Part shown: in pieces, positions 6,970-50,468 of the stretch
How positions within the stretch are numbered: position 1 is the first letter of the stretch
Layout: each line of letters begins with the position of its first letter
Origin: Candidatus Omnitrophota bacterium
GTDB lineage: Bacteria > Omnitrophota > Omnitrophia > Omnitrophales > Aquincolibacteriaceae
Reading direction: 5' to 3'
NCBI GenBank assembly: GCA_022709525.1
Contig: JAKLIQ010000006.1
Location: 66,708 to 130,707, forward strand
Length of the DNA: 64,000 bases
Made by a program: the position numbers and the translations under genes
The notes under the pieces: model-generated
Seen by the model: the letters and a program-made list of their open reading frames with translations, nothing else
Told to the model about the DNA's origin: nothing
Database searches by the model: none

Positions 6970-7020
6970 AAATTCCAGGGATCGCAAATCGATTGATAAG
7001 CTTTATTTTTTCATGATTTT

Positions 7021-7041
7021 TTGACATCTTCGTGCTATAAT
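7021..7041 (+). promoter_or_regulatory. perfect TTGACA and perfect TATAAT only 9 bp apart, upstream of the hyf-like operon
   Basis: ttgacatcttcgtgctataat lies ~135 nt upstream of the first gene. The hexamers are too close to act as one sigma-70 promoter; they may belong to two overlapping promoters. Confidence 0.4.
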
Positions 7042-7177
7042 GCCGCCTCGAAGTAAGAAGTAAGTGCCGCCAGACTGTTATCCAGCCATCCTCACGGCAG
7101 TTCTCCCTTAAAAAAGAGAGCCCAAGGTCGCTTTAACATCTTGCAGGCAAAAGACTTACGGAAAGTTCGAAGGAAAG

Positions 7178-9208: not shown

Positions 9209-10155
9209 ACCCGGTCCTTCTCTCGTTCCTTCAGCTTTTATTTTTGATGATTTTGGCGCCGGCCATAAGCTGGTTCATCAAAAAAATGAAGGCGGCTTCC
9301 CAGAATCGCATTGGGCCGAAGCTGGCGCAGGTTTACGCCGATCTCTGGAAGCTTTGCCGCAAGGATATGGTTATCTCAGAGACGGCGTCATGGATCTTTC
9401 ATGCCATGCCGTTCGTTCTTTTTGCGGCGACGCTCGCGGCGGCCTCGATGGTGCCAATCCTGTGGAATCACTCTCTTTTTGGTTTTATGGGAGACGCGAT
9501 CCTTTTTGTTTATCTTCTGGCCCTAGGCCGTTTTTTCATCGCGCTCGCCGCGTTGGATACCGGCACGACTTTCGGGGGGATGGGATCAAGCCGGGAAATG
9601 ACGCTTTCTTCCATCGCCGAACCGGCGCTTTTGCTTTCTTTTTTTGCTTTGGGCTTTCATGCGAGAACCTTATCGTTGGAAGGCATGACGGCACATTTCG
9701 CCAATGCATCCTCCCTTCAAATATTATTCTTCACAAGTCTGGCGTTCGGATCGCTTTTGATCGTGACCATTGCCGAAAGCGGCAGGATCCCCGTGGATAA
9801 CCCCGCCACGCATCTGGAACTGACCATGATCCATGAGGCGATGATCCTGGAATATTCCGGAAGGTATCTCGCCCTGATCGAATGGGGCCATCAGATCAAG
9901 CAGCTGGTTTTCCTGACGCTTTTGGCTGATTTCTTTTTTCCGTGGGGGATCGCAACGACCGGAGGTGCGGCGGCGCTGGGGTTGTCGCTCGTCTTTTATC
10001 TGGCGAAGGTCTTCGGGCTGGCTTTTGTGATCGGATGGATCGAGATCCATTCCGCGAAACTGCGCCTTTTCAGGGCGCCGGATCTTTTGACGGTCGCTTT
10101 TGTCCTGGCGATCCTTTCCCTTTTGGGGCAGTTGATCATCGGGAGGGGCGTGTGA
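9205..10155 (+). CDS. NuoH/HycD/HyfC-type membrane subunit
   Basis: ATGA start/stop overlap with the upstream gene and a GGAGGA RBS. MNPVLLSFLQLLFLMILAPAISWFIKKMKAASQNRIGP matches the N-terminus of the complex-I subunit-1 family. Confidence 0.8.
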   Translation: MNPVLLSFLQLLFLMILAPAISWFIKKMKAASQNRIGPKLAQVYADLWKLCRKDMVISETASWIFHAMPFVLFAATLAAASMVPILWNHSLFGFMGDAILFVYLLALGRFFIALAALDTGTTFGGMGSSREMTLSSIAEPALLLSFFALGFHARTLSLEGMTAHFANASSLQILFFTSLAFGSLLIVTIAESGRIPVDNPATHLELTMIHEAMILEYSGRYLALIEWGHQIKQLVFLTLLADFFFPWGIATTGGAAALGLSLVFYLAKVFGLAFVIGWIEIHSAKLRLFRAPDLLTVAFVLAILSLLGQLIIGRGV

Positions 10156-10811
10156 GCGCGGAATTTATGGCTTCCCTGATCCATTTTCTTGGCATGATGC
10201 TTTTGATCGCTTCTTTCTGGATTCTCGTCTCTTCCCAGATCGGGGCGTGCATTCGCGCGTACGCGACGCATTCTTTCCTACTCGCGCTTATCACCGCGGT
10301 AGTTGCCTGGAGTCAGCACATCGAACATTTGATTATCCCGGCGCTTTTGACCCTTGCGCTGAAAACGATCGTGATCCCGCACGTTTTTTTCCGGATCATC
10401 CGGCGGCTCGGGATCCGCAAAGAAGTGGAAAGTTATATTAATATTCCCTTCTCGCTTCTTTTGGCCGTCTTGCTCGTTTTCATTTCGTTTTATGCGACCG
10501 GGGAAGGGAGATTCCTTAAGCCCGCGGCGTTCGGCGAGTTCATCCCGCTCGCCATTTCGACCGTGTTTTTCGGTATGCTCATGATGACGACGCGAAAAAA
10601 AGCGATCAGCCAAGTTCTCGGCCTGCTTTTGATCGAGAATGGGCTTTTTTTAATGGCGATCACCATGACCTTCGGCATGCCGCTTCTGGTTGAGATGGGG
10701 ATCTTTTTTGACGTTCTCATTGCGGTGATGATTATGGGGCTTTTTGTTTTTAAGATCCGCGATGCTTTTGAGGGCATCGACGCGGACGACATGACGGTTT
10801 TGAAAGGATAA
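10152..10811 (+). CDS. HyfE/NuoK-like small membrane subunit
   Basis: ~219 aa, 6-7 TM, GTG start overlapping the upstream stop (GTGA) with a GGAGG RBS. Its position and size match hydrogenase-4 component E. Confidence 0.6.
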   Translation: MSAEFMASLIHFLGMMLLIASFWILVSSQIGACIRAYATHSFLLALITAVVAWSQHIEHLIIPALLTLALKTIVIPHVFFRIIRRLGIRKEVESYINIPFSLLLAVLLVFISFYATGEGRFLKPAAFGEFIPLAISTVFFGMLMMTTRKKAISQVLGLLLIENGLFLMAITMTFGMPLLVEMGIFFDVLIAVMIMGLFVFKIRDAFEGIDADDMTVLKG

Positions 10812-10812
10812 T

Positions 10813-12372
10813 ATGATGACGATCGACAAGGCGCTTTGGATGCCGCTTATTTTTGCATTCCTTTGCCTGATCCCTTCTCCCAAGCGGATCACCCGCCTAA
10901 CTTTTATCGCCGGCGCCGTTATTTCCGCGATCGGAGCATGGGGCTTTGTGTTTGGGGCTTCCTGGTCACCACGGGTATTCGCGTTCAACGGAAACCTTAT
11001 GATGGATGCGCTGTCCGCGGTTTTTGCGCTTCTCATCACGGGCGTGGGCGTGCTTTCGGCTGTTTATGCCGGCGGGTATCTTTTCAAGGAAGGGGACGGG
11101 AGTATTTCCCCGTTAAGGCTCCGGCGGTATGCCTGTTTTTTCCATCTTTTTCTCTTTACCATGCTTCTGACGGTCTTTTCCAATAACCTCGGGATCATGT
11201 GGATCGCGATTGAAGGAACGACGCTAGCCTCGGCCTTTCTTGTCAATGTCGACGACAAAAAAAGCTCGATCGAGGCGGCATGGAAATATCTGATCCTTTG
11301 CAGCGTCGGGATTTCGCTCGCTCTTTTTGGGATTATCCTGGTCTACTATTCGGCGATCGCCCAGGCCGCATCGGGTGAAAGCGGCCTTTTGTTGAACTGG
11401 ACCTTCCTTTTAAGCAAAGCCAAGCAGCTCGATCCGCAAGTGCTCCGGCTCGCTTTTATTTTTATTCTTGTGGGTTACGGCACCAAAGCCGGCCTCGCGC
11501 CTTTCCATTCCTGGCTGCCGGATGCGCACAGCCAGGCCCCGGCCCCCGTGAGCGCGCTTCTTTCCGGCGTGCTCTTAAGTTGCGCGACGCTTGGGATATT
11601 GAGATTCCATATCCTGACGAAAGCCGCAACCGGTTCCGCGTTCTCCGACACGCTCCTCATTTTTTTTGGCGTACTTTCGGTTGTCGTGGCCACGCCTTTT
11701 ATCCTGGAACAAAAAGATTACAAACGCCTTCTGGCCTATTCGAGCGTCGAACATATGGGGCTTGCGGCGGCCGGGCTCGGCTTCGGCGGGGCTTTGGGAC
11801 TTTACGGGGCGATCCTTCATATCATGAACCACGCTTTTACCAAGTCGCTTCTTTTTTTCAGTTCCGGTCATCTCTATTACCTTTTTCACTCCAAAGAGAT
11901 CGCTGATGTCAAAGGTCTCTTAAGGAAAAACGCCTTTTTAGGGATCATTTTCTTTTTGGCGGCCTTAGCGATCGCCGGGATGCCGCCTTTCAGCATTTTT
12001 GTGAGCGAATTCTTGATCTTAAGCGCCGGGTTCCTTGGCGGAAAATATATTTCATGCGCCGTCCTGCTTCTTTTTCTCGCGTTGATCTTTGTCGGTTTTT
12101 TGAGGCACGCGAGCCGGATGACCTTGGGCGGTCCCAATACCAATCAATCGAAGCAAAGCGGAGATTGGGGCCGTCCAAACTACCATTTTGGAAAAGAAAT
12201 AAAAAGTTTGGGCGGTTCGGAGGAACCTCCAAAAGTTGAACGGAGCCTTTTGATGGACAGCGTGCTTGTCGTCGGCATGATCGTGATCCTCACAATGGGG
12301 TTTTATATTCCGGGACCTCTGAACGCGTTGATCCAGGCGGCCGGCCGCATCGCCGGTGGGACGATCTTATGA
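10813..12372 (+). CDS. NuoM/NuoN/HyfF-type antiporter-like subunit
   Basis: 519 aa; GYGTKAGLAPFHSWLPDAHSQAPAPVSALLSGVLLSCA is the Proton_antipo_M core. Confidence 0.85.
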   Translation: MMTIDKALWMPLIFAFLCLIPSPKRITRLTFIAGAVISAIGAWGFVFGASWSPRVFAFNGNLMMDALSAVFALLITGVGVLSAVYAGGYLFKEGDGSISPLRLRRYACFFHLFLFTMLLTVFSNNLGIMWIAIEGTTLASAFLVNVDDKKSSIEAAWKYLILCSVGISLALFGIILVYYSAIAQAASGESGLLLNWTFLLSKAKQLDPQVLRLAFIFILVGYGTKAGLAPFHSWLPDAHSQAPAPVSALLSGVLLSCATLGILRFHILTKAATGSAFSDTLLIFFGVLSVVVATPFILEQKDYKRLLAYSSVEHMGLAAAGLGFGGALGLYGAILHIMNHAFTKSLLFFSSGHLYYLFHSKEIADVKGLLRKNAFLGIIFFLAALAIAGMPPFSIFVSEFLILSAGFLGGKYISCAVLLLFLALIFVGFLRHASRMTLGGPNTNQSKQSGDWGRPNYHFGKEIKSLGGSEEPPKVERSLLMDSVLVVGMIVILTMGFYIPGPLNALIQAAGRIAGGTIL

Positions 12373-39502: not shown

Positions 39503-40732
39503 ATGTTTAAATTTCCAGGGAATTTTTTATGGGGCGCCGCGACTTCCGCTTATCAAGTGGAGGGTGGCAACACGCGCGCCGACTGGTGGCAGTGGGAAAA
39601 AGAAACGGGCAAAGAGCCCTCCGGGGATGCCTGCCGCCATTACGGGCTTTACGAGCAGGATTTCGATCTTGCCAAAGGCCTGCATCATAACGCCCACCGG
39701 CTTTCACTTGAATGGAGCCGCCTCGAGCCCGAGGAGGGGCAATTCTCCGAAGAAGCCCTTGAACATTATCTGAACGTAATCCTCGCGCTGAGGGCGCGGG
39801 GCATCGAGCCGCTCGTGACTTTACACCACTTTACCAATCCCGCCTGGCTCGCAAAAAAAGGGGGCTGGGAAAATCCGGGAACGGTAAAGCTTTTTTTAAA
39901 GTATACGGCTTTTATCCTTAAAAAACTCGCCCCCCAAGTGCGTTACTGGATCACGATCAATGAGCCCACCGTGTATGTCTATGAATCCTACATCATGGGC
40001 CTGTGGCCTCCGCAGATCAAATCGCTTTGGAGAGCCAGGACGGTTGAAAACCATTTAGCCGCCGCGCACATCAAGGCCTACCGGTTGATCCATGAAACTT
40101 ACTGGCGGAAAAAAATGCAGCTGCCTTCGGTCAGCATCGCCCAGCATATGCAGGATTTTGTGCCGTGCGTCCCAGATTTCAGGAACAAGCTCGCGGCGTC
40201 CTTGCGTCATCGGTGGTTCAATCTCGGCTTGATCAGCAAGTTCCGGAGGCATAAAGCCCTGGACTTTATCGGCGTTAATTATTACTCGAGGCAGCGCGTG
40301 GAAGTCCAGAAGTGGGGGCTTCGCAACCTCTTTATGGATATTTGCGTGAAAGCAGAGCACCGTGTTCCCGAAACGAATTCGTCGGGATGGGAAGTTTATC
40401 CGGAAGGCCTCTGCCGGGTATTGCTCAAGCTTAAAGGTTATCATCTTCCTATCGTGATCACAGAAAACGGTATTTGCACCCCCGACGATGCCTTGCGGTG
40501 GCGCTATATCGAGGCCCATCTCCGGTCGATTCACCGCGCCATCCGCGAAGGCGCCCCGGTCACCGGGTACCTCTACTGGTCGCTGATGGATAATTTCGAG
40601 TGGCACGACGGTTTCGGGCCGAGATTCGGCCTGATCGGGATCGATTATCCCACCCAGCAAAGAACGGTCCGCGAAAGCGCCGTCCAATTCGGGAAAGTCT
40701 GCAAAACCGGAGCGTTGGAACAAGACCTGTAA
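39503..40732 (+). CDS. glycoside hydrolase family 1 (beta-glucosidase-like)
   Basis: FLWGAATSAYQVEGG N-terminus, acid/base TINEP, and nucleophile ITENG. Confidence 0.9.
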   Translation: MFKFPGNFLWGAATSAYQVEGGNTRADWWQWEKETGKEPSGDACRHYGLYEQDFDLAKGLHHNAHRLSLEWSRLEPEEGQFSEEALEHYLNVILALRARGIEPLVTLHHFTNPAWLAKKGGWENPGTVKLFLKYTAFILKKLAPQVRYWITINEPTVYVYESYIMGLWPPQIKSLWRARTVENHLAAAHIKAYRLIHETYWRKKMQLPSVSIAQHMQDFVPCVPDFRNKLAASLRHRWFNLGLISKFRRHKALDFIGVNYYSRQRVEVQKWGLRNLFMDICVKAEHRVPETNSSGWEVYPEGLCRVLLKLKGYHLPIVITENGICTPDDALRWRYIEAHLRSIHRAIREGAPVTGYLYWSLMDNFEWHDGFGPRFGLIGIDYPTQQRTVRESAVQFGKVCKTGALEQDL

Positions 40733-40782
40733 ATGATTTTATTCCCTCGTATTTTTAGTCTACCCGTTCTATACTGGCGCCC

Positions 40783-42033
40783 ATGACAACGCATCCGGCG
40801 GCAGAACCGCCCGCCGCCCCAAGCTTTTACGGCCTTGGGATCGCTCCCCATCTTCTGGAAACCCTCCAGAAGATGAAATTCCATACGCCCACGCCGATCC
40901 AGCAAAAAGCCATTCCGCTTGCGGTCGAGGGCCAGGACGTGATCGGGATCGCGCAAACAGGGACCGGGAAGACCCTGGCGTTCGGGATCCCCATGATCCA
41001 GCGTCTCGCTCAGAAAAAAGGGCGAGGGCTCGTCCTTGTGCCGACGCGCGAATTAGCTTATCAGGTCCACCAGAGCATTCATAAGATCGATCCTAAATTG
41101 AAGTTCGCCGTCCTGATCGGCGGCGCCTCCATGCACCATCAGATCCAGGAACTCCGTCAGCACCCGCGCATCCTGATCGCGACACCGGGTCGCTTGATCG
41201 ATCATATGGAGCAACGCTATGTGTTCTTGAACGAGATCAGCGTTCTAGTGCTTGATGAAGCCGACCGGATGCTCGATATGGGTTTCGCGCCGCAGATCCA
41301 GAAGATCCTCCGCGTATTGCCTAAGGAGCGTCAGACTATGCTTTTTTCGGCGACCATGCCGGACGCCATCATGAAGATCGCGACCTCCCAAATGAAACTG
41401 CCGGTCCATATCGAGATCGCCAAGTCCGGAACCGTGGCGGAGAAGATCACCCAGGAAGTTTTTGTTGTAAAGAAAGAGGCCAAACGGGACCTCCTGAAAA
41501 AAATACTGGCCCAATACCACGGAACCGTCCTTGTTTTTTCAAGGACCAAGATCGGCGCTTACAAGATCACGCGCGCGATCCGGGAAATGGGGCATCATGC
41601 CGCCGAGATCCACGCCGACCGCTCCTTGGCGCAAAGGCGGGAAGCGCTGGAAGGGTTCAAGTCCGGGAAATACCGGATCCTTGTCGCGACCGACATCGCC
41701 GCGCGTGGGATCGACGTCAAAGGCATCGAATTGGTCATTAACTACGACCTTCCCGACGAATCCGAGAATTATGTGCATCGTATCGGCCGCACCGGGCGGA
41801 TCGGGGATAAGGGGCATGCGATCTCGTTCGCGACGCCGGAGCAGGGGAAAGAGGTCAAAGATATCGAAAAACTCATGCGCATGGCGCTTCCGATCTCCGA
41901 ACACCCCGAAATGCCGCTTGAGAGTTTTATCGAGCATAAACCCGTGAAGGTCGCCTCCTTCGGCGGCGGCCGTTTCGGCCGGCGAGGCCGCTCCCGCGGC
42001 TATATCGCCTCCGCTTTTCGCAGAGCCCGTTGA
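40783..42033 (+). CDS. DEAD-box ATP-dependent RNA helicase
   Basis: Q-motif, AQTGTGKT, DEAD, SAT, HRIGRTGR, and an Arg-rich C-terminal tail. Confidence 0.9.
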   Translation: MTTHPAAEPPAAPSFYGLGIAPHLLETLQKMKFHTPTPIQQKAIPLAVEGQDVIGIAQTGTGKTLAFGIPMIQRLAQKKGRGLVLVPTRELAYQVHQSIHKIDPKLKFAVLIGGASMHHQIQELRQHPRILIATPGRLIDHMEQRYVFLNEISVLVLDEADRMLDMGFAPQIQKILRVLPKERQTMLFSATMPDAIMKIATSQMKLPVHIEIAKSGTVAEKITQEVFVVKKEAKRDLLKKILAQYHGTVLVFSRTKIGAYKITRAIREMGHHAAEIHADRSLAQRREALEGFKSGKYRILVATDIAARGIDVKGIELVINYDLPDESENYVHRIGRTGRIGDKGHAISFATPEQGKEVKDIEKLMRMALPISEHPEMPLESFIEHKPVKVASFGGGRFGRRGRSRGYIASAFRRAR

Positions 42034-42128
42034 TCCTTCAGAATTAAGGTTGAAAAAGGCCCTGGTTCGGCATATCCTTTCCCTCACGACGATCCATTTC
42101 CGTACGCTTTTTAAAGCGAGGACCTTTT

Positions 42129-44021
42129 ATGAAAGTACGCACGCAGCTGATCGCCCTCATCTCCCTCCTTTTCTTTATCTTTGCGCTGGCGTTTTTTGCC
42201 ATCCGCGCCGATGATACAAAAGAAGCCGTTCTTTTATTCCAGAACGAATCCACGGAAAAGAAAGATGTTTTTGACAAGCTTCTCCGGCTTCAAAGCCATT
42301 CGGCCTATGTGTTGGCCTACGATTATACCTATTGGGACGAAATGGCCGATTTTATCAAGACCAAGGACCCGGTATGGGCGGGCGAAATGATGAGCGCCAA
42401 CACGCTCTCCACCTACCAGGTCGACAGTCTGTGGGTTTATGATCTGGCCGCTTCCCTGGTTTATTCCTTTAGCGATCCCGAAAAACACAACCTCGCGACA
42501 TTCCCGATCCCGGGCGATGTGATCCCGCAGCTTTTTGAAAAGGCCCCTCTGACCCATTTTTTTGTTCCCACCGACCAGGGGCTTTGGGAGGTCCGCGGGG
42601 CCAGCATCCACCCGTCGAATGATCCGGAGAGAAAAACAAAACCCGCCGGCTACTTTTTTAACGGGAAAGTATGGGATCCGGAGTATCTCGCGAACCTTGA
42701 AAATCTTTTTGAGGCCAGGATCCGGCTCGTTCCTCCGGGTTCTCTGAAAGATCCCCGCGATATTTTTGACCCCGAAAGCGGGAGCATCGCTTTCTTCAGG
42801 CCGCTTAAAGGCTGGGACGGACAGACCCTTATGTTCCTCGAAGTGAAGATCCGGTCGCAGGAAATGCAAGCGTTCAACCGGAGAAGCCAAAAATACCTGG
42901 TTCTTTTTCTGGTCTTCGCTGTCGGCGTGATCGGGATCGTCGCCTTTTTTTCCGTGACTTCGATCGGGATCTCGCTTACCGCTATCTCCAAGGCGCTTAC
43001 CTCGGGTTCGGCGACCTTTCTTTTCAGGGTTAGAAAAAGCAAGACGGAGTTCGGCGAGATCGCGCTTTTGATCGAAAAATTCTTCGAGCAGAAAAAAAGA
43101 CTCACTGAAGAGATCGCCGAAAGGGAGAGGGTCGAGTGGCAGATCCGGCACGCGGCGCAGGAATGGGAAAAGACCTTTGACAGCATCTCGGACCTTGTAT
43201 TTTTGATGGATAAAGAATGCCGCGTCGTCCGGGCGAACAAGGCCTTTTTTGATTTTTTTCACGCGAAGCCCGAAGCTGTCCTGGGCAAAAAATGCTATGA
43301 ACTGGTCCACCATATGGAAAGCAACTGGCCGACCTGTCCTTTTCAAAAGACCATCAAGGATCTCTTGCCGCACACCGAAGAAGCGCAAACTTTCAACGGG
43401 ATCCCTCTTTTGGCGACCGTTTCGCCCATTTTCGACGACAAGGGGGAAGTGGTTGGCGCGGTCCATATCGCAAAAGACATGACCAATCTCAAAAAAGCGG
43501 AAGCGGAACTTCAAAAGGAGAAGGGCCTTTCCCAGCGTTATTTTGAGGTCGCCAAGGCCATTATGGTCGTTTCGGATCGGGACGGCAATGTCACGCTGAT
43601 CAATCAAGCCGGTTGCGATATTCTGGGTTATGCCAAAGAAGAAGTGATCGGAAAGAACTGGTTCGACCACTTCATTCCGGGCGATATAAGGGCGTCCTTA
43701 AAATCCTTCTTTCGGGAGATAACCGAGGGAAGAAAAAAAATGGACGAAGCGGAGCATCATGAAAATCCCGTTCTAAGAAAAGACGGGACCCAGAGGATCA
43801 TTGTGTGGCATAACGCCCTGATCAAAGACGAGCAGCAACAAGTAACCGCCATTTTAAGTTTTGGTGAAGATGTCACTAACCGGGCGAATTATGAGAAAAA
43901 TCTTCGGGAGAAGGTCGAAGAGCTCGAAAAATTTAAGAAGATCGCCGTCGACCGCGAACTTAAAATGATCGAGCTGAAAGAAAAACTTAAGACCCTCGAG
44001 GGAGGCAAGGGCGCCGCTTGA
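42129..44021 (+). CDS. membrane sensor protein: periplasmic domain - TM - two PAS domains - conserved C-terminal coiled-coil module (no kinase/output domain)
   Basis: Two PAS-like blocks (FDSISDLVFLMDKECRVVRAN...; YFEVAKAIMVVSDRDGNVTLINQAG...). The C-terminus ELEKFKKIAVDRELKMIELKEKLKTLEGG is shared with the ORF at 44568. Confidence 0.65.
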   Translation: MKVRTQLIALISLLFFIFALAFFAIRADDTKEAVLLFQNESTEKKDVFDKLLRLQSHSAYVLAYDYTYWDEMADFIKTKDPVWAGEMMSANTLSTYQVDSLWVYDLAASLVYSFSDPEKHNLATFPIPGDVIPQLFEKAPLTHFFVPTDQGLWEVRGASIHPSNDPERKTKPAGYFFNGKVWDPEYLANLENLFEARIRLVPPGSLKDPRDIFDPESGSIAFFRPLKGWDGQTLMFLEVKIRSQEMQAFNRRSQKYLVLFLVFAVGVIGIVAFFSVTSIGISLTAISKALTSGSATFLFRVRKSKTEFGEIALLIEKFFEQKKRLTEEIAERERVEWQIRHAAQEWEKTFDSISDLVFLMDKECRVVRANKAFFDFFHAKPEAVLGKKCYELVHHMESNWPTCPFQKTIKDLLPHTEEAQTFNGIPLLATVSPIFDDKGEVVGAVHIAKDMTNLKKAEAELQKEKGLSQRYFEVAKAIMVVSDRDGNVTLINQAGCDILGYAKEEVIGKNWFDHFIPGDIRASLKSFFREITEGRKKMDEAEHHENPVLRKDGTQRIIVWHNALIKDEQQQVTAILSFGEDVTNRANYEKNLREKVEELEKFKKIAVDRELKMIELKEKLKTLEGGKGAA

Positions 44022-44118
44022 GGCCCTTTTACCGCTTCCGGCCTCAGAAAAACCGCTCTATCTTGATCTGGGGATGCCGATACTAAGAACCGCAATCATT
44101 TGAAGGACAGGAGGTTCG

Positions 44119-44502
44119 ATGAAAAAAAAGATCCTCGTAATCGATGATGATCCCGCGGCGTCCCAGCTGATCGCGGAATTACTCCAAGCACAGGGCCACG
44201 AGGCCGTCGCGTCTTTTAATTTTGAGGACGCCCTCCGCCGTGCCCAGCAAGGGGCGCCCGATCTTGTCGTGGTCGACGCCGTGATGCCCGAGATCTCCGG
44301 GTTCGAAGCCTGCCGCAAGCTCAAAAAAATGTTCGAAACGCGCCCACCCCTTGTGATCATGATGACCGCTAAATTCAGCGCGTTCGATCCCATTCTGGCC
44401 CGCGAAATGGGCGCCGATGATTTTGTGGTCAAAACAGGGGATATGTCCTTTGTGGTCAAGGCGGTGCGGGATATCTTTCCAAAAGAAGGGCTGTCTTCTT
44501 GA
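44119..44502 (+). CDS. single-domain response regulator (CheY-like receiver)
   Basis: ILVIDDDP acidic pocket, phospho-acceptor D in LVVVDAVMP, T in MMTAK, and the conserved K. Confidence 0.85.
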   Translation: MKKKILVIDDDPAASQLIAELLQAQGHEAVASFNFEDALRRAQQGAPDLVVVDAVMPEISGFEACRKLKKMFETRPPLVIMMTAKFSAFDPILAREMGADDFVVKTGDMSFVVKAVRDIFPKEGLSS

Positions 44503-44567
44503 GCCAGCATTCCTCCTGCTCAAAAGATTCACAGCGCGGGTTTGGTGTCATTGGGGGGGGGTCGATC

Positions 44568-46034
44568 ATGAAAGAACCCAAAGGGCTTAAGCTGGAAAAG
44601 GCCTTTTTTATATTTCCCGTGACCATTTTTTTGATCACGCTTTTTTCGGGGATCCTGCTCGCCGGCCTTTTGGGGAATGTCGGAGCAACCTTTCTCCGGC
44701 TTCAAAGCGAAAATACGGTCGCGGCGATCGGTACCGGTATTCGCAACGACCTTCAGCAGGGAGAAGCCGCGGGAGGCGCCATGGTGGGTTCTCCCTGGAT
44801 CGTCCCCGCGTTGATCGATCCCAGCCCTTCCAATATCGAAAAAGCCAATTCGGTCCTGGACCGTTATAACAAAAACCTCAATTTTTCTGTTTGCTATCTT
44901 TTAGACCTTCAGGGCAACGCGATCGCTTCCTCCAACAGGAACGATCCCGATAGTTTTGTCGGGAAAAATTACGCATTCCGGCCTTATTTTCATGAGGCAG
45001 TCCTGGGGAATCCCATGGTCTATATGGCCACCGGCGTGACGAGCCGGGAAAGGGGTTTTTACGCTTCTCATCCCGTCAGAGACGGGCAGGGGAGGATCGT
45101 CGGTATTTCGGTGATCAAAAAGAACGTGGAAGCGGTCAAGGCATTGCTTCTTAATTCTAAAAATATCTTTTTTGTCAGTCCGGAGGGCGTGATCTTCATA
45201 TCAGGATCTCCCGACAAGGTTTTAAGGCCGCTCTGGCCCTTAAGCGAGGAGCGTCTCCGCAAGATCAAGGATTCCAAACAATTCCTGCTCGCGTCCGAAG
45301 AGCCCGTTTTCCCGGATCCCGTTCAGGATGGAGCGACAGTCCGCCTTGAAAAAGAATCCTATCAGTTCATTCAAAGGCCTTTAGGGCCGCAGGGATGGTC
45401 GCTTGTTTTTCTCGCGCCGCTTAAAAGCGTTTTTTATTATCAATTCTTGGGATGGGTGATCGCCGGTTTCATGGCCATCATCATTATTTTCCTGACCGTT
45501 TGGGCCCTCTTGCGCATCAGGGCCCGCGAAACTCTCCGGGAGATCGAAGAGCGTTTCAGTTCCGCCTTCAGGGCCTCCGGAAGCGGCATGGCGATCGTGA
45601 GTTTGGAAGGCCGTTGGCTCCAGGTGAATCCGTCGCTGTGCCGGATCGTGGGTTATACCGAAAAAGAACTGCTCCTAAAAACGTTCCAGGAGGTCACTCA
45701 TCCGGATGATCTTGAAAGGAATCTTGCTTATGTCAAACGTCTCTTGGCCGGGGATATCCAAGATTACCGCATAGAAAAGCGCTACATGCATAAGGACGGC
45801 CACTTCGCGTGGGTCCTTGTTTCGAAGTCGGTGGTCCGCGGCAGTAAAGGCGAACCGCTTTATTTTGTCGCGCAGATCGAAGACATCAGCGACCGTAAGG
45901 CGGCGGAAAAAAAATTAGAAGAGCAGGTCAAAGAACTTGAGAAATTCAATAAGATCGCGGTAGATCGGGAACTCAAGATGATCGAGCTTAAAGAAAAGAT
46001 CAAAACCCTTGAAAAGGGAAAACAAAATGGGTAA
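44568..46034 (+). CDS. membrane sensor protein: Cache-like periplasmic domain - TM - PAS - conserved C-terminal coiled-coil module
   Basis: Cache-like periplasmic region, one PAS domain (FRASGSGMAIVSLEGRWLQVNPS...), and the C-terminus LEKFNKIAVDRELKMIELKEKIKTLEKG. A start at 44568 avoids overlap with the receiver gene. Confidence 0.65.
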   Translation: MKEPKGLKLEKAFFIFPVTIFLITLFSGILLAGLLGNVGATFLRLQSENTVAAIGTGIRNDLQQGEAAGGAMVGSPWIVPALIDPSPSNIEKANSVLDRYNKNLNFSVCYLLDLQGNAIASSNRNDPDSFVGKNYAFRPYFHEAVLGNPMVYMATGVTSRERGFYASHPVRDGQGRIVGISVIKKNVEAVKALLLNSKNIFFVSPEGVIFISGSPDKVLRPLWPLSEERLRKIKDSKQFLLASEEPVFPDPVQDGATVRLEKESYQFIQRPLGPQGWSLVFLAPLKSVFYYQFLGWVIAGFMAIIIIFLTVWALLRIRARETLREIEERFSSAFRASGSGMAIVSLEGRWLQVNPSLCRIVGYTEKELLLKTFQEVTHPDDLERNLAYVKRLLAGDIQDYRIEKRYMHKDGHFAWVLVSKSVVRGSKGEPLYFVAQIEDISDRKAAEKKLEEQVKELEKFNKIAVDRELKMIELKEKIKTLEKGKQNG

Positions 46035-48774
46035 AGGTTTTTGGGGCGGAAAAAATAAGCCGTTTTTCCCTGTTTTCAGCGTCAAAGACACTTCCGCCAA
46101 AAATAAAACAAAAAACGGTCCTGCCAAACGCTTTTGGAGCATCCGCTACAAGGTCATTCTTCTTGTGGCCTTCATGATGTTTTTTACCGTCGCGGCGCTC
46201 TCGACCTCCGGTTTTTTCCTTGTTTATAACATGCGTTCCCAGGCCATCGGGGAGAGCATTCAGATGGACGCGCGGCTCGCGTCAGAAGCTTTGGCGGACG
46301 CGGTCGAAGAAAAAATGAAGGCGCTTCGCGTTTACTTCGCCGATCCTGAGTGGAAAGAATTTTTACAAGAGGTCAACGCGGCGCGCGAGGCGCTTTCCCC
46401 GGAAGAGCGTGAGGCGTATTTTAAAAAAATGGACCTGGCATGGCCCGGCCTCGATGCGGGGGAGTGGGAACAGGCATTGAATGGACCCATGAGCGTTCGT
46501 TTGAAAAACTATGCCAGCGAGGATGATCAGATCGCCGAGATCTTTATCACGGACCGGTACGGGGGCTTGGTCGCCGCGTCCGGAAAAACCACGGATTTTT
46601 TTCAAGCCGACGAGACTTGGTGGCAGGATGCCTCCAAAGGCGAGGAAAGCCTCGAGCTTTTACGGGACGTATCCTTTGACGAATCTTCAGGTATCTTAGC
46701 CCTCGATATGACGACGTCGATCAAGGACAAAAAGGGGAATGTGATCGGGTTCGCCAAGCAAAGCGTGAACACCGAAGAATTTTTTAAGCTTTTGGATCAC
46801 TACACATTTAAAGAAACGGGACATGCCGTTCTTTTAAATAGTTACGGCGACGTCCTTTTTCATGAAGGCGTCAATCCTCTTTCGGTCAAAGTTTTTGATG
46901 AAAAAACGCTTCAAAAAGTCCTCTATGATAAGCGCGGCTGGATCATGCTTCCCGGAAGTTCTCTTCATAGGCATAAGATACTTGTAGGGAGGGCCAAGGT
47001 CGATTTTTCGGCGCTTGAAACAGGTAGCGTCCAGTGGTATGTCATTACCACGCTGGATGAGAAGGAATTTTTTCATCCTTTGAAAAGGGTCATTGCGATC
47101 CTTAGCTTAAGCGGAAGCGCTTTCTTTCTGTTTTTTTTCCTTCTCGGGTATTTTTTAAGCAAGAAGCTGGTCGATCCCACCCGTCAGCTTCACAAAGCGA
47201 TCCTGGAGGTCCAAAAAGGGAATTGGGATTATCCTTTGGAGATCCATACCGGCGATGAAGTGGAGGAGCTTGCTGATTCTTTCCGCGCCCTGATCAAGCA
47301 TCTCAGGCAGAGACAGCTTGACCTCGCCAAGGCCAGGGAGGAAGTGGAAGCGCTTTCTCAGAGTTTGGAAGAAAAGATCGAAGCAAGGACCCAGGACCTT
47401 TCGCAGAGCCAGCGCGCGACCATGAATATCATGGATGATCTCGCCGAAACGAACGAAAAAATAAAAAAACAAACGGAAGAATTAGAACGTAATCGTGAGC
47501 TTCTGAACGAAACCGGCGAAATGGCGAAGGTCGGGGGCTGGGAAGTGGACCTTGCGACCCAAGCGTCGACTTGGACGGACGAAACATACCGGATCCACGA
47601 GCTAGAGATCGGACACGCGCCCAGCCTGCAGGAGGCGATTGGTTTCTACGCTCCCGAATCGCGGCCTATTCTTGTCGAAGCGGTTAAAAACGCCATGGAA
47701 GAAGGACAGCCGTTCGATCTCGAGCTTGAGATCATCCCGGTTAAAACAAAGAAAAGGCTCTGGGTGCGCGCCAGCGGGAAGCCTATCTATGAACGGGGCA
47801 AGATCTTCAAACTGCGCGGGACGTTCCAGGACATCGATGTCCGCAAACGCACCGAGATCGAACTTAAAAAGCAAAAGTCCGAGCTGGAAACCCAGTCTTG
47901 GGGGCTTCAAAAAGCGAACGAAGGCATCAAAGCACTTTATCAGGAATTGGAGGCAAAGAGCGTGAAACTTGAGAAGTTGGACAAAATGAAGGATGAATTT
48001 GTATCGGTCGTCGCGCACGAACTGCGCAGCCCTTTAAGCGTGATCCATGAAGCGGCCGCCCTGATCATGGACGGGCTCGCGGGGCCTGTTTCCGAACAGC
48101 AAAAGGGCTATATCGAGATGGTCCGGCGGACCGCGGACCGTTTGATCCATATTACCAATGACCTCTTAGATCTTGCGAAGATCGAAGCCGGGAAGATCGT
48201 TCTGAACTTTGAACCGATGGACATCATTTCCGCGGCGCGGCAGGCGTGCGAAGGAAGCCGCCTTCGCGCCAATAAGAAAGGCCTCGAGATCCGCGAAGAA
48301 TTTCCGGCCGAGCGGCTTCAGATCACCGCCGATTACGATAAACTTTCACAGGTCATGGTGAATCTTTTAACGAACGCGGTGAAATTCACCCAGAAGGGAT
48401 CTGTGACCTTCGAGATCAAGGACCTCGGGGGCGAAGTCCAGTGCGCTGTCCAGGATACGGGGCCCGGGATCGCCGAGGAGAACCTTTCACGGCTTTTTAA
48501 CAAATTCGAACAATTTGGCACGCAAGCGACAAGCGGCGAGAAGGGGACAGGGCTTGGGCTCGTGATCTCCAAAAGCATCGTGGAAGCCCACGGCGGCCGC
48601 ATCTGGGCGGAAAGTCAGCCCGGCAAAGGATCTTCTTTTATTTTTGTCGTACCGAAGCAGCCGAAACGGAAACGCAAGCTCGGCGAGATCCTTGTGGAAG
48701 ACAAGACCCTCACTCCCGAGCAACTGGACGAAGCCCTTCGCCGGCAGAAGGAGCACGAAGAACAAGGATCTTAG
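46027..48774 (+). CDS. sensor histidine kinase (dCache-like periplasmic domain - HAMP - coiled coil - PAS - HisKA - HATPase_c)
   Basis: H-box KDEFVSVVAHELRSPL; N, G1, G2 boxes (LLTNAVKFT, DTGPGI, GTGLGL). 46009 is an alternative start. Confidence 0.85.
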   Translation: MGKGFWGGKNKPFFPVFSVKDTSAKNKTKNGPAKRFWSIRYKVILLVAFMMFFTVAALSTSGFFLVYNMRSQAIGESIQMDARLASEALADAVEEKMKALRVYFADPEWKEFLQEVNAAREALSPEEREAYFKKMDLAWPGLDAGEWEQALNGPMSVRLKNYASEDDQIAEIFITDRYGGLVAASGKTTDFFQADETWWQDASKGEESLELLRDVSFDESSGILALDMTTSIKDKKGNVIGFAKQSVNTEEFFKLLDHYTFKETGHAVLLNSYGDVLFHEGVNPLSVKVFDEKTLQKVLYDKRGWIMLPGSSLHRHKILVGRAKVDFSALETGSVQWYVITTLDEKEFFHPLKRVIAILSLSGSAFFLFFFLLGYFLSKKLVDPTRQLHKAILEVQKGNWDYPLEIHTGDEVEELADSFRALIKHLRQRQLDLAKAREEVEALSQSLEEKIEARTQDLSQSQRATMNIMDDLAETNEKIKKQTEELERNRELLNETGEMAKVGGWEVDLATQASTWTDETYRIHELEIGHAPSLQEAIGFYAPESRPILVEAVKNAMEEGQPFDLELEIIPVKTKKRLWVRASGKPIYERGKIFKLRGTFQDIDVRKRTEIELKKQKSELETQSWGLQKANEGIKALYQELEAKSVKLEKLDKMKDEFVSVVAHELRSPLSVIHEAAALIMDGLAGPVSEQQKGYIEMVRRTADRLIHITNDLLDLAKIEAGKIVLNFEPMDIISAARQACEGSRLRANKKGLEIREEFPAERLQITADYDKLSQVMVNLLTNAVKFTQKGSVTFEIKDLGGEVQCAVQDTGPGIAEENLSRLFNKFEQFGTQATSGEKGTGLGLVISKSIVEAHGGRIWAESQPGKGSSFIFVVPKQPKRKRKLGEILVEDKTLTPEQLDEALRRQKEHEEQGS

Positions 48775-48789
48775 GTTTGAAGCGATAAA

Positions 48790-48830
48790 AAAAGCCGGTT
48801 CCCTTTACGGAGAACCGGCTTTTTCTTTTT
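48790..48830. terminator. bidirectional rho-independent terminator (histidine kinase + / groEL1 -)
   Basis: AAAAAGCCGGTTC-cctttacg-GAGAACCGGCTTTTTCTTTTT. Confidence 0.8.
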
Positions 48831-48839
48831 CGGGAAAAG

Positions 48840-50468
48840 TTATTCGATGCTGCCCGAATAATTCGAGGATTTTTTCTTATCCTCGTCTTTCTTTTCTTTG
48901 GGTTTTTCCGCCACGACGCACTCGGTCGTGAGGATCAGCCCCGCGATACTGCAGGCGTTCTCCACCGCGATACGGACGACCTTGGCCGGGTCGATGACCT
49001 TATCTTCCACAAGGTCGGAAAACTCTCCCGATTGCGCGTTAAATCCAAAACTGCCCTTGCCTTCAAGGATCTTCTTTACGACGACCGATCCGTCGACGCC
49101 CGCGTTATGGGCGATCTTGCGCGCGGGTTCCTGAAGGGCCCGGCGCACGATCTGAACGCCGGTCGCTTCATCGCCGGAAGCTTTCACGTCGTCGAGTGAT
49201 GCGATCGAGCGCAGAAGCGCCACGCCGCCGCCCGGAACAATGCCTTCCTCGATGGCCGCCCGGGTCGCGTGAAGCGCGTCCTCGATGCGGGCTTTCATTT
49301 CTTTCATCTCGACTTCGGTCGCCGCGCCGACCTTGACGACGGCCACGCCGCCGGAAAGTTTCGCCAGGCGCTCCTGGAGTTTTTCCTTGTCGTATTCGGA
49401 GTCGGATTTTTCGATCTGGGCCTTGATCTGCTCACAGCGGGCCTTGAGGTCCTTCGCGGCCCCCGCGCCGCCCACGATCGTGGTGTTATCCTTATCGATC
49501 ACGACGCGCTGGGCCGTGCCGAGCATATCAAGATCGACATTCTCAAGCTTCACGCCGAGGTCCTCGGAAACGAATTTGCCTTTGGTGAGGATCGCGATAT
49601 CTTCCATCAACGCCTTCCGCCGATCGCCGAATCCCGGGGCCTTCACGGCCGCGATCTGAAGTACGCCGCGGATCTTGTTCACGACGAGGGTCGCGAGCGC
49701 CTCGCCTTCAATATCTTCGGAAACGATCAGAAGCGGTTTCCCGAGGCGAGCGACTTTTTCAAGCGCCGGCACAAGGTCTTTGACCGCGCTGATCTTTTTC
49801 TCGTAAAGGAGGATGTAGGGTTCTTTTAAGACCACTTCCATCCGTTCGGCATCGGTCACAAAGTAGGGCGAGAGATAGCCGCGGTCGAACTGCATACCCT
49901 CGACCACGTCCAGCTCGGTCTTAAGGCCTTTGGCTTCTTCGACCGTGATAACGCCTTCTTTGCCGACCTTTTCAAGAGCGTCCGCCAGAAGCTGACCGAT
50001 GCTCTGATCATTGTTAGCGCTGATCGCGCCGACCGCGGTGATGTCTTCTTTGCCTTTGACGGCTTTCGACATTTTCTTTACCGCTTCAACTACTTTCGCG
50101 GAAGCCTTATCGATCCCGCGTTTCAGGGCCATGGGGTTAGCTCCCGCAGTGACGTTTTTCAGGCCTTCCGAGACGATGGCTTGGGCCAGGACCGTGGCGG
50201 TCGTTGTGCCGTCCCCGGCGTTATCGGAAGTCTTTTCCGCGACTTCACGGACCATCTGGGCACCCATATTTTCGTAAGGGTCCTTCAGGTCGATCTCTTT
50301 GGCGACCGTGACACCGTCTTTAGTGACAAGCGGCGCCCCGAATTTCTTGTCGATCACAACATTACGGCCGCGGGGCCCGAGTGTGACGCCGACAGCCCGC
50401 GCGAGGATATCCACGCCGCGTTTGATCCGCTGGCGCGATTCTTCCGAGTAGGAAATAAGTTTTGCCAT
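48840..50468 (-). CDS. groL: chaperonin GroEL, paralog 1 (no C-terminal GGM repeat tail)
   Basis: [38 protein letters not shown]...[14 protein letters not shown]. The C-terminus is [17 protein letters not shown] rather than a Gly-Gly-Met repeat. Confidence 0.95.

What the first reader, a model, noticed from the sequence alone, without database searches (positions are those of the whole stretch)
43900..46034. Two PAS sensor proteins share a conserved ~30-aa C-terminal coiled-coil module and lack any kinase/output domain
The ORFs at 42129-44021 and 44568-46034 both end with ELEKF(K/N)KIAVDRELKMIELKEK(L/I)KTLE(G/K)GK. The DNA of the two copies has diverged considerably while the peptide is conserved, which implies selection on the protein.

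Neither protein has HisKA/HATPase, GGDEF, EAL, HD-GYP or MCP domains. They flank a stand-alone CheY-like receiver and precede a large hybrid-architecture histidine kinase (46027-48774). The module weakly resembles a truncated DHp/H-box helix with Asp in place of His (KIAVDRELK versus VVAHELR).

It may be a docking or heterodimerisation helix that plugs these accessory sensors into the neighbouring kinase. That would make a multi-input sensory complex of a kind not captured by standard domain annotation.
Basis: partly seen in the sequence, partly recalled or inferred. Interest (0 to 1): 0.55.

Follow-up and report, generated by a model that had tools for sequence, protein, structure and literature searches.

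The report
Plug-and-socket helices linking sensors to kinase
Two membrane sensor proteins with no output domain end in the same highly conserved helix, which across Bacteria and Archaea marks output-less sensors encoded just upstream of histidine kinases that carry a second, matching conserved helix; the pair looks like an unannotated plug and socket that wires separate sensors into one kinase.

Summary
Proteins A (42129-44021) and B (44568-46034) share a ~40-aa C-terminal helix, ELEKF.KIAVDRELKMIELKEK.KTLE. Its 27-codon core has 2 amino-acid changes against 13 synonymous ones.

The helix is not a generic coiled coil. A profile of it finds 4,097 protein clusters. In nearly all of those inspected it lies at the extreme C-terminus of proteins built only from input domains (PAS, HAMP, Cache, GAF, CHASE4), from Omnitrophota, CPR, DPANN, Nitrospirota, Geobacter and methanogens. 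No Pfam or NCBIfam model, solved structure or paper matches it.

The new result is a partner motif. Kinases downstream of tail genes carry a second conserved helix, which I call NLLED (...S.RA.LN.LED..E.). In this window it is at 47386-47478.
- Forward test: 46-53% of tail loci have an NLLED protein downstream and none upstream.
- Reciprocal test: 77% of NLLED kinases have a tail gene upstream, none downstream and none in the same reading frame.
- Controls gave zero hits.

Both helices sit in strict heptad register, the tail with its sensor domain and NLLED with the phospho-histidine. Natural sensor-kinase fusions lack both.

Best reading: the tail docks on the kinase's input coiled coil. This is inferred, not shown. 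The resemblance to the kinase's histidine helix (DHp helix 1) is positional only, and the Asp is not conserved.

The parts
42129..44021 (+). Sensor A: membrane protein of 630 aa with CHASE4, two PAS domains and the tail; no output domain
   Evidence: ORF. Pfam: CHASE4 at aa 62-200, PAS at about 351-460 and 471-586, no output domain. P0122 (628 aa) has CHASE4, two PAS domains and a tail.
43893..44012 (+). Tail helix of A (core ELEKFKKIAVDRELKMIELKEKLKTLE = 43920-44000)
   Evidence: Tail profile scores 67.6 bits. The PAS 'DVT' Asp to the invariant Arg is 28 residues, i.e. 4 heptads (my count on the sequence; family distribution).
44119..44502 (+). Stand-alone CheY-like receiver, 127 aa
   Evidence: Pfam Response_reg, E = 1.5e-21. 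A receiver precedes the B orthologue in L003/L004 and L005.
44568..46034 (+). Sensor B: membrane protein of 488 aa with dCache, one PAS domain and the tail; no output domain
   Evidence: 100% identical to P0002, annotated Candidatus Omnitrophota. Pfam domains. AF2 mean pLDDT 87.9.
45903..46022 (+). Tail helix of B (core ELEKFNKIAVDRELKMIELKEKIKTLE = 45933-46013)
   Evidence: Tail profile scores 68.4 bits. One continuous helix at aa 441-486, emerging from the last PAS strand, pLDDT 73-90 for residues 441-480 (62 for the last few residues). It is the most conserved segment among 31 orthologues.
46027..48774 (+). Partner histidine kinase, 915 aa: dCache, HAMP, NLLED helix, PAS, HisKA, HATPase_c; its start overlaps B's stop by 8 nt
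   Evidence: Pfam domains. The overlap is read from the sequence. The B-then-kinase order is conserved in L001-L005.
47386..47478 (+). NLLED helix (RTQDLSQSQRATMNIMDDLAETNEKIKKQTE), the proposed socket for the tails
   Evidence: NLLED profile scores 37.3 bits, the only hit in the window. Conservation in 20 kinase orthologues is 0.76-0.82, comparable to the H-box (0.86). It lies inside the long helix 411-493 of the AF2 model, but at low pLDDT.
47986..48192 (+). HisKA (DHp) domain; the phospho-acceptor His codon is at 48016-48018
   Evidence: Pfam HisKA at aa 660-728 of the ORF opening at 46009. H-box VVAHELRSP.
48331..48660 (+). HATPase_c catalytic domain
   Evidence: Pfam match at aa 775-884, E = 5.4e-31.

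Best explanation
A and B are trans-acting input subunits of the kinase encoded immediately downstream. Each senses through its own periplasmic (CHASE4 or dCache) and cytoplasmic (PAS) domains. Each passes the signal into a rigid C-terminal coiled-coil helix, the tail, held in fixed heptad register with the last sensor domain.

The tail dimer docks non-covalently on a matching conserved helix, NLLED, in the kinase's own input coiled coil. That helix is itself in fixed heptad register with the phospho-acceptor histidine. Conformational changes in a separate sensor therefore shift kinase or phosphatase activity. With its own dCache domain, the kinase integrates three inputs. The neighbouring single-domain receiver is the likely phospho-acceptor.

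**Shown:** the two motifs, their complementary distribution (tails on output-less sensors, NLLED on kinases), their directional gene linkage, their heptad phasing, and their joint loss in fused proteins.

**Inferred:** direct tail-NLLED contact, the bundle geometry, and the sign of regulation.
For: **Tail distribution.**
- The tail profile finds 4,097 clusters at 50% identity.
- In 167 of 181 distinct tails the match ends 14 residues or fewer from the C-terminus.
- Pfam on 110 tail proteins shows only input domains. Local searches find no kinase core, GGDEF or HD-GYP domain in 147 tail proteins.

**Gene order.**
- In the 79 GTDB species-genome loci fetched with the tail motif, a kinase occupies position +1 in 23 of 84 cases and +2 in 16 of 79. 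Position -1 has 3 of 78.
- Pfam confirms 21 of 63 downstream against 3 of 58 upstream.
- Stop/start overlaps are frequent.

**NLLED association.**
- NLLED is present in at least 20 of the 23 kinases at +1, and in none of the kinases upstream or on the opposite strand.
- Forward test: 27-31 of 59 loci have NLLED downstream, 0 upstream.
- Reciprocal test: 49 of 64 NLLED loci have a tail upstream, 0 downstream, 0 in the same ORF. The 34 chance pattern matches contain 0 tails.
- Background: none of about 95 unrelated HisKA kinases carries NLLED.
- Of 78 NLLED proteins, 72 are kinases.

**Register.**
- NLLED Asn to His spacing is an exact multiple of 7 in 38 of 40 kinases.
- PAS-DIT to tail Arg spacing is 28, 35 or 42 in 136 of 150. 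ERT to Arg is a multiple of 7 in 43 of 45.

**Minimal and fused forms.**
- Minimal systems: a [PASx3-tail] gene followed by a kinase that is only [NLLEDx3]-HisKA-HATPase-REC.
- Fusions P0013 and P0048 delete exactly the tail and NLLED.

**Conservation.** The tail in B orthologues and NLLED in kinase orthologues are the best-conserved non-catalytic segments.
Against: - No physical or structural evidence of contact. Only monomer AF2 was available, and the NLLED region has low pLDDT (42-49).
- Mutual information between 84 tail/NLLED pairs does not exceed a permutation null.
- About half of tail genes have no NLLED protein within 3-6 kb downstream, for example three tandem tail genes in Geobacter sp. 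OR-1, locus L056.
- Other proteins recur between the tail gene and the kinase and could mediate the link: FIST, a ~200-aa family with a weak match to the V4R domain, and CheR/CheB.
- Internal copies of the tail exist in multi-sensor proteins, just before PocR domains. The helix can therefore also act as an ordinary linker within one protein.
Confidence: 0.6

Rival explanations
1. Decoy protomer. The tail is a degenerate first helix of a DHp domain, left over from a truncated kinase paralogue. The sensor forms a heterodimer with one kinase protomer, or inserts into its four-helix bundle. This blocks or biases autophosphorylation, as RetS does to GacS.
For: - The tail sits exactly where DHp helix 1 begins. 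PAS-DIT to Phe is 21 residues, as in direct PAS-HisKA kinases, and its first half (ELE.F) matches the usual pre-H-box segment.
- In L044 the tail protein is a truncated paralogue of its own kinase, alignable through 'LLED.NEAK.ELE...E.ER.N..F'.
Against: - hhalign of the tail against 36 DHp segments gives probability 2.3% and aligns only 14 N-terminal columns.
- No HisKA hit in Pfam, even at E = 10. No DHp hit in PDB.
- The model does not explain why partner kinases need the separate NLLED motif, nor why kinases made only of NLLED repeats plus the catalytic core exist.
- A and B show no paralogy to the window kinase.
Confidence: 0.15
2. The tail is only a homodimerisation (J-alpha-like) coiled coil that stabilises the sensor dimer. 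Signalling to the kinase, if any, goes through membrane or PAS-PAS contacts.
For: - The heptad pattern and the single long helix in the AF2 model.
- Short LOV/PAS proteins with C-terminal coiled coils are known (own knowledge; PMC13322254, listed).
Against: - Twenty consecutive positions are conserved on all faces of the helix, with an invariant Arg-Glu, from DPANN archaea to Proteobacteria. That is far more than dimerisation needs.
- Specific co-occurrence with NLLED.
- Many tail proteins and partner kinases are soluble, so membrane contacts cannot be general.
Confidence: 0.1
3. The tail and NLLED do not touch. Each is recognised by a third component encoded in many of these operons: a FIST protein, the ~200-aa V4R-like protein, CheR/CheB (with the tail as a reversible methylation site), or the single-domain receiver.
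For: - FIST occurs in 10 of 79 tail loci and 9 of 120 loci from the metagenome DNA-pattern scan for NLLED. The V4R-like family occurs in 6 of 79 and 15 of 120. CheR occurs in 5 of 79.
- Receivers are enriched at -1 and at +2/+3.
Against: - None of these is present in most loci. The window itself has no FIST, V4R-like or CheR gene near the operon.
- Minimal two-gene systems exist.
- The tail lacks the chemoreceptor methylation consensus (read).
Confidence: 0.1

Closest known systems
Auxiliary sensor proteins of two-component systems ('three-component systems'), e.g. H-NOX with its adjacent kinase HnoK, LuxP-LuxQ, TorT-TorS (own knowledge)
   Same: A separate sensor protein is encoded in the same operon as a histidine kinase, has no output of its own, and modulates that kinase.
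   Different: The known cases use idiosyncratic interfaces and are lineage-specific. Here one conserved pair of cytoplasmic helices recurs with many different sensor domains in Bacteria and Archaea. The sensor resembles the input half of a kinase cut at the start of the DHp.
Short LOV/PAS proteins with a C-terminal J-alpha coiled coil and no effector domain (e.g. Pseudomonas putida PpSB1-LOV; own knowledge, cf. PMC13322254 listed)
   Same: A PAS core followed by a C-terminal helix that forms a dimeric coiled coil, with no output domain.
   Different: To my knowledge those proteins carry no conserved RELKMIELK-type motif and have no defined partner motif. That sequence comparison was not run here.
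DHp helix 1 / H-box of HisKA kinases, and DHp-mediated cross-regulation (RetS-GacS) or DHp-binding inhibitors (Sda) (own knowledge)
   Same: The tail has the same position and heptad phase relative to the PAS domain as DHp helix 1. Its first half (ELE.F) resembles the pre-H-box segment. The idea that an extra helix packing on a kinase helical bundle controls activity is shared.
   Different: There is no His (Gly or Asp at the equivalent position), no Pro kink, no second helix, and no significant profile similarity.
Signalling helix (S-helix) with the 'ERT' motif (Anantharaman, Balaji and Aravind 2006; own knowledge)
   Same: A heptad coiled coil that transmits signals out of sensor modules. 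HAMP-type tail proteins and NLLED kinases both have an ERT-like motif a fixed number of residues upstream.
   Different: The S-helix links two domains within one protein. The tail ends the protein, and its conserved core differs from ERT.

Membership tests
HisKA / DHp domain (degenerate or truncated) | Significant sequence-profile similarity to HisKA | tested here: not met
   Pfam at E up to 10 gives no HisKA hit. hhalign against 36 DHp segments gives probability 2.3%. The PDB profile search returns no kinase.
HisKA / DHp domain (degenerate or truncated) | Conserved phospho-acceptor His in helix 1 | tested here: not met
   The positionally equivalent column is Gly 96, Asp 65, Asn 8, Ala 5 of 181. 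The next residue is an invariant Arg.
HisKA / DHp domain (degenerate or truncated) | Helical hairpin (helix 1, loop, helix 2) forming a four-helix bundle in the dimer | tested here: not met
   The protein ends 0-14 residues after the helix in 167 of 181 tails. AF2 shows a single helix.
HisKA / DHp domain (degenerate or truncated) | Position and heptad phase relative to the preceding PAS domain | tested here: met
   DIT to Phe is 21 residues in A and B, and also in a direct PAS-HisKA kinase, L007_8. In L044 the tail aligns with the start of helix 1 of its paralogous kinase.
Generic low-complexity coiled coil | Found on unrelated proteins, with no position-specific conservation | tested here: not met
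   Arg, Glu and Lys are invariant and 20 consecutive columns are conserved. Hits are restricted to sensor-only proteins. There are 0 hits of 25 bits or more in 34 control loci, and nothing above 2.9 bits elsewhere in the window.
Auxiliary sensor of a two-component system | Separate gene co-transcribed with a histidine kinase | tested here: met
   8-nt overlap between B's stop and the kinase's start. Synteny holds in L001-L005. The kinase is at +1/+2 in 39 of 84 tail genes.
Auxiliary sensor of a two-component system | Sensor domains present, no output domain | tested here: met
Auxiliary sensor of a two-component system | Physical binding to the kinase and modulation of its activity | not testable with these tools
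   Only monomer structure prediction was available. The co-variation test was inconclusive.
S-helix (signalling helix) | Coiled coil joining a sensor module to a downstream output domain, with an ERT signature | tested here: not met
   No domain follows the tail. The ERT-like motif, where present, lies 21 residues upstream of the tail Arg and is not part of the core.
Chemoreceptor-type methylation helix (CheR/CheB substrate) | Consensus [ASTG][ASTG]xx[EQ][EQ]xx[ASTG][ASTG], with CheR/CheB in the system | tested here: not met
   The consensus is absent from the tail profile. CheR occurs near 5 of 79 tail loci only, and not in the window.

The most novel reading that the evidence does not exclude
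The tail and the NLLED helix form a universal, modular plug-and-socket. Free-standing sensor proteins with PAS, HAMP, Cache, GAF, CHASE4 or receiver inputs are wired non-covalently into histidine kinases, and occasionally HD-GYP enzymes, throughout Bacteria and Archaea, including the small-genome CPR and DPANN lineages. Thousands of 'orphan' output-less sensor proteins would then be the input halves of split sensor kinases. Kinases with tandem NLLED repeats would be hubs that accept several sensors.
Probability: 0.5. Interest if true: 0.85.

Novelty: new variant of a known kind. Interest (0 to 1): 0.8.

Why it matters
Genomes contain very many 'PAS domain S-box proteins' and HAMP- or Cache-only proteins with no output domain and no assigned role. 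If the tail/NLLED pair is a real interface, it gives those proteins a function as trans-acting inputs of a defined kinase.

It also gives a sequence rule for predicting which sensor talks to which kinase, and it shows how small-genome organisms combine several inputs on one kinase. Finally, it offers a compact, natural, heptad-phased adaptor for engineering modular sensor-kinase circuits.

Both motifs are absent from Pfam-A (24,736 models) and, for the tail, from NCBIfam 20.0. Current annotation therefore misses the relationship.

Tried and rejected
1. The word-indexed homology search with the 51-aa tail found only one hit. The method is too insensitive for so short a query, so I replaced it with the exhaustive profile search.
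2. 'Asp replaces His' as a conserved feature is rejected. The position is mostly Gly.
3. DHp homology is not supported by hhalign, Pfam or PDB. I keep it only as a positional analogy and a possible evolutionary origin.
4. Literature string searches for both motifs, and concept searches, found nothing relevant.
The first DNA pattern had too few plain bases. A longer pattern worked.
6. Mutual information between 84 tail/NLLED pairs: maximum corrected MI (mutual information after average-product correction) 0.28 against a permutation 95th percentile of 0.27. This is inconclusive.
7. The jackhmmer GGDEF check drifted into PAS and linker sequence and was discarded. I repeated it with a clean phmmer seed, which gave 0 hits.
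8. tblastn of a consensus tail against plasmids gave no match.
9. The CheR/CheB substrate idea: enrichment is modest (5 of 79) and the methylation consensus is absent. It is kept only as a side note.
10. The AF2 monomer model of the kinase puts the NLLED region in a long helix, but at low confidence. I do not use it as evidence of an interface.


Full report
**1. Observation**

The window holds four genes on the + strand.
- A: 42129-44021, 630 aa.
- A receiver: 44119-44502.
- B: 44568-46034, 488 aa.
- A kinase: 46027-48774. Its ATG overlaps B's stop by 8 nt.

Pfam gives these architectures.
- A is CHASE4 plus two PAS domains.
- B is dCache plus one PAS domain.
- The receiver is a single Response_reg domain.
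- The kinase is dCache-HAMP-PAS-HisKA-HATPase_c. It has no receiver or HPt domain, so it is not 'hybrid'.

A and B end with ELEKF(K/N)KIAVDRELKMIELKEK(L/I)KTLE. The DNA of the two tails is 64% identical. The 27-codon core has 2 non-synonymous and 13 synonymous differences. B is 100% identical to a protein annotated Candidatus Omnitrophota.

**2. The tail in orthologues**

Thirty B orthologues of 32-87% identity, all about 485-493 aa with the same architecture, keep the tail. In per-column conservation it is the best-conserved 30 residues of the protein, at 0.74-0.85 against about 0.5 for the PAS domain. The residue that is Asp in this window is Gly in most orthologues, and also Ala, Ser or Glu.

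**3. The tail in the protein universe**

An exhaustive HMMER search with a three-sequence profile found 4,097 representative clusters with E of 0.001 or less. In the best 150, the match ends at or near the C-terminus of proteins 40-1,226 aa long. In 167 of 181 distinct tails it ends 14 residues or fewer from the end.

The consensus is L..K.EELERFNK(I/V/L)AV(G/D)RELKMIELK(E/K)KIK.LE. The Arg and Glu of 'RE' are invariant. The Lys of 'ELK' is nearly invariant. About twenty consecutive positions are conserved.

Pfam on 110 of these proteins shows only input domains: PAS 75, HAMP 19, dCache 11, GAF 10, PocR 5, CHASE4 4, HisKA_7TM 3, CBS, and 4HB_MCP. Local searches find no kinase core, GGDEF or HD-GYP domain in 147 tail proteins.

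A longer variant ends ...ELK.EIN.L...LG..P.Y.I. Internal copies occur in multi-sensor proteins just before PocR domains.

No Pfam or NCBIfam model covers the tail. No solved structure matches it. No paper in the library contains the motif strings.

They come from these groups:
- Omnitrophota and Planctomycetota
- many CPR/Patescibacteria
- DPANN archaea
- Methanosarcinales, Thermoplasmata and Methanoperedens
- Nitrospirota, Thermodesulfobacteriota and Geobacter
- Gammaproteobacteria, Bacteroidota and Verrucomicrobiota

**4. Anatomy of the tail**

AF2 of B with 31 orthologues (mean pLDDT 87.9) models the tail as one unbroken helix, residues 441-486, leaving the last PAS strand.

The tail is phased to the upstream module.
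- The Asp of the PAS 'D(I/V)T' motif to the invariant Arg is 28 residues in 109 cases, 35 in 25 and 42 in 2, out of 150.
- In HAMP-type proteins the S-helix 'ERT' Arg to the tail Arg is 21, 28, 14 or 35 residues in 43 of 45.
- A and B both have 28.

A heptad assignment puts L, F, A, R, M, L, I, L at a/d positions, with the invariant Arg at a d position. It leaves a second hydrophobic stripe (V, L, I) free. This is my reading and is inference.

**5. Gene neighbourhood (forward test)**

The 79 GTDB loci hold 88 tail genes. Tandem paralogues are common, for example three in a Nitrospirae MAG and three in Geobacter sp. OR-1. I used simple ORF calls and jackhmmer seeded with the window's kinase core and receiver.
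- A kinase occupies position +1 on the same strand in 23 of 84 cases and +2 in 16 of 79.
- Position -1 has 3 of 78 and -2 has 3.
- Receivers peak at -1 and at +2/+3.

Pfam confirms HisKA+HATPase in 21 of 63 close downstream neighbours against 3 of 58 upstream. Stop/start overlaps are frequent. B orthologues at 38-44% identity keep the B-then-kinase order. In L003 the wider synteny (GH1, DEAD helicase, receiver(s), B, kinase, GroEL/ES) matches the window but lacks A.

**6. A second motif in the partner kinases**

Inspecting the downstream kinases revealed a conserved helix, here called NLLED. Its consensus is (K/R)T.EL.ES(K/Q/R).A(L/M/T)(L/M)N(I/L/M)(L/M)ED(L/V/M/T).E(A/E/S). In the 28-sequence seed alignment Ala, Asn and Asp are invariant; more divergent copies vary even at these positions.

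In the window it reads RTQDLSQSQRATMNIMDDLAETNEKIKKQTE, at nt 47386-47478, between HAMP and PAS. It is the only hit in the window.

In the GTDB loci:
- A regular expression hit 22 of 39 kinases lying +1 to +3 downstream of a tail gene (one of these, L006, proved a false match inside the DHp, though an HMM then found a divergent true copy in that kinase), and none of the kinases upstream or on the opposite strand.
- The four other hits are at +4, or in loci where my ORF caller missed the tail gene.
- An HMM finds divergent copies in at least 20 of the 23 '+1' kinases, and in one PAS-PAS-HD-GYP protein at +1.
- Of 59 tail loci with at least 3 kb downstream, 27-31 have NLLED downstream and none upstream.

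Reciprocal test. A DNA pattern for A.[LM]N[ILM][LM]ED..E returned 120 metagenome loci.
- 86 were validated by the NLLED HMM.
- Of the 64 with at least 1.5 kb upstream, 49 (77%) have a tail motif of 25 bits or more upstream on the same strand.
- None has a tail downstream, and none has it in the same ORF.
- The 34 unvalidated, chance matches contain no tail at all.

Background. Among 120 kinases retrieved with the window kinase, NLLED occurs only in 21 close relatives of the window kinase (those with source names are Omnitrophota-type) and in none of about 95 more distant HisKA kinases. Of 78 NLLED proteins, 72 have HATPase_c, 71 HisKA, 2 HD_5 and 1 HisKA_2. In 20 orthologues of the window kinase, NLLED conservation is 0.76-0.82, comparable to the H-box at 0.86.

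**7. Phasing, minimal systems and fusions**

- Where the NLLED helix runs straight into the DHp, the Asn-to-His distance is 28, 35, 42, 49 or 70 residues in 38 of 40 kinases. NLLED is therefore part of the coiled coil that drives the DHp.
- Some kinases have no sensor domain at all. L093 and L154 are [NLLEDx3]-HisKA-HATPase-REC, immediately preceded by a [PASx3-tail] gene. L183 and L196 have four NLLED repeats.
- One tail protein has a receiver as its input: REC-PAS-tail in L123.
- Two natural fusions join a B-like sensor to a kinase core 67% identical to the window kinase. P0048 is B 1-~315 plus kinase 478-909. P0013 is B 16-459 plus a PAS domain plus kinase 579-886. Both lack exactly the tail and NLLED.

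**8. Relation to the DHp**

The first half of the tail (AEE.L..K..ELE.F) resembles the usual linker into the H-box. There the Phe lies 6 residues before the His. With DIT-to-Phe at 21 residues in both, the G/D column is positionally the His equivalent. In L044 the tail protein is a truncated paralogue of its kinase, and the tail aligns with the start of helix 1.

However, hhalign of 82 tails against 36 DHp segments gives probability 2.3%. Pfam and PDB give no kinase hit. There is no His, no Pro kink and no second helix. An origin from a truncated kinase is plausible. Membership of HisKA is not supported.

**9. Mechanism and rivals**

Best explanation (confidence about 0.6): the tail dimer of each sensor packs on the NLLED coiled coil of the kinase dimer, probably as a four-helix bundle. 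The tail's conserved basic residues would face the invariant acidic patch of NLLED. Sensor-induced shifts of the tail would then be relayed in register to the phospho-histidine.

The interface, its geometry and the sign of control are inferred. I could not run multimer prediction. A mutual-information test on 84 pairs was not above the permutation null. The NLLED region of the monomer AF2 model is helical (411-493) but at low confidence.

Rivals:
- A DHp-decoy heterodimer (0.15).
- Homodimerisation only (0.1).
- A third factor, such as FIST, the ~200-aa V4R-like family or CheR/CheB, which recur in subsets of loci (0.1).

About half of tail genes lack a nearby NLLED protein. Either partners can be encoded elsewhere, or the tail has further roles.

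**10. Comparison and novelty**

In kind, this is an auxiliary-sensor (three-component) arrangement, which is known. What I could not find described is the following:
- the conserved, heptad-phased pair of helices;
- their complementary distribution, with tails on output-less sensors and NLLED on kinases;
- their breadth across Bacteria and Archaea;
- the sensor-less kinases built of NLLED repeats.

None of these appears in the searchable literature or in Pfam/NCBIfam. I rate it a new variant of a known kind, with high interest.

**Caveats.** Most sequences come from metagenome-assembled genomes and metagenome contigs. ORF calling was simple. All functional statements rest on comparative genomics.

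Noticed in passing
P0013 (848 aa) and P0048 (747 aa), relatives of window 44568-48774: Natural single-chain fusions of a B-like dCache sensor to a kinase core 67% identical to the window kinase. Both lack the tail and the NLLED helix.
   Followed up: yes
L093:4308-5789, L154:215-1657, L183:3-1205, L196:1332-2603: Kinases with no sensor domain whose N-terminus is 2-4 tandem ~22-aa NLLED repeats (TQRA.LNILEDF.EEK). Each follows a multi-PAS tail gene by about 60-150 nt.
   Followed up: partly
L021:6122-7595, L043:8225-9677, L023:6661-7488, L055:587-1438, L017:515-3565, L002:6929-8932: CheR, CheR+CheB pairs, or CheB-CheR(-PAS) fusions sit beside tail genes or their kinases in several unrelated lineages (CheR in 5 of 79 tail loci). 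These enzymes might act on this system, possibly with the tail's invariant Glu as a methylation site. This is untested.
   Followed up: partly
L010:6145-6744, L018:6170-6775, L053:6116-6712, L057:6128-6763, L080:169-774, L083:3823-4455, and 15 metagenome loci: An unannotated ~200-aa protein family recurs between the tail gene and the NLLED kinase, mostly in CPR and DPANN. It has only a weak V4R match and no PDB relative. FIST proteins recur in the same position (10 of 79 and 9 of 120 loci).
   Followed up: partly
P0131, P0133, P0163, P0178, P0184: Large multi-sensor proteins carry an internal copy of the long tail variant (...ELK.QVN.L....GR..P...) directly before a PocR domain, and a second copy at the C-terminus. 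None has an output domain.
   Followed up: partly
L010:8570-9994 and L083:6254-7606 (N-terminal ~90 aa): CPR kinases carry another repeated N-terminal helix motif, ELDRIAKMLVRRD(L/F)EL..I(K/Q)EKRE, in two copies, upstream of their NLLED helix. It loosely resembles the tail pattern, but the tail profile scores it below zero bits.
   Followed up: no
window 46027-48774 versus orthologues P0271-P0286: Most orthologues of the window kinase have an extra N-terminal membrane region of about 200 aa. They lack the PAS domain that the window kinase has between NLLED and the DHp, and in them the Asn-to-His spacing is 70 residues, i.e. 10 heptads.
   Followed up: partly
L003 (Ga0451520_0000145), compared with window 39503-50468: The same locus (GH1, DEAD helicase, receiver(s), B, kinase, GroEL/ES) exists in a distant relative without protein A. 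There a methyltransferase on the opposite strand and a second receiver take its place. A is therefore a lineage-specific addition to the operon.
   Followed up: partly
window 42234-43670 (-): A 478-aa ORF lies antisense within gene A. It is almost certainly a spurious shadow ORF.
   Followed up: no
window 6001-12000: Strongly negative AT skew (-0.24 to -0.29) over about 6 kb, unlike the rest of the window.
   Followed up: no
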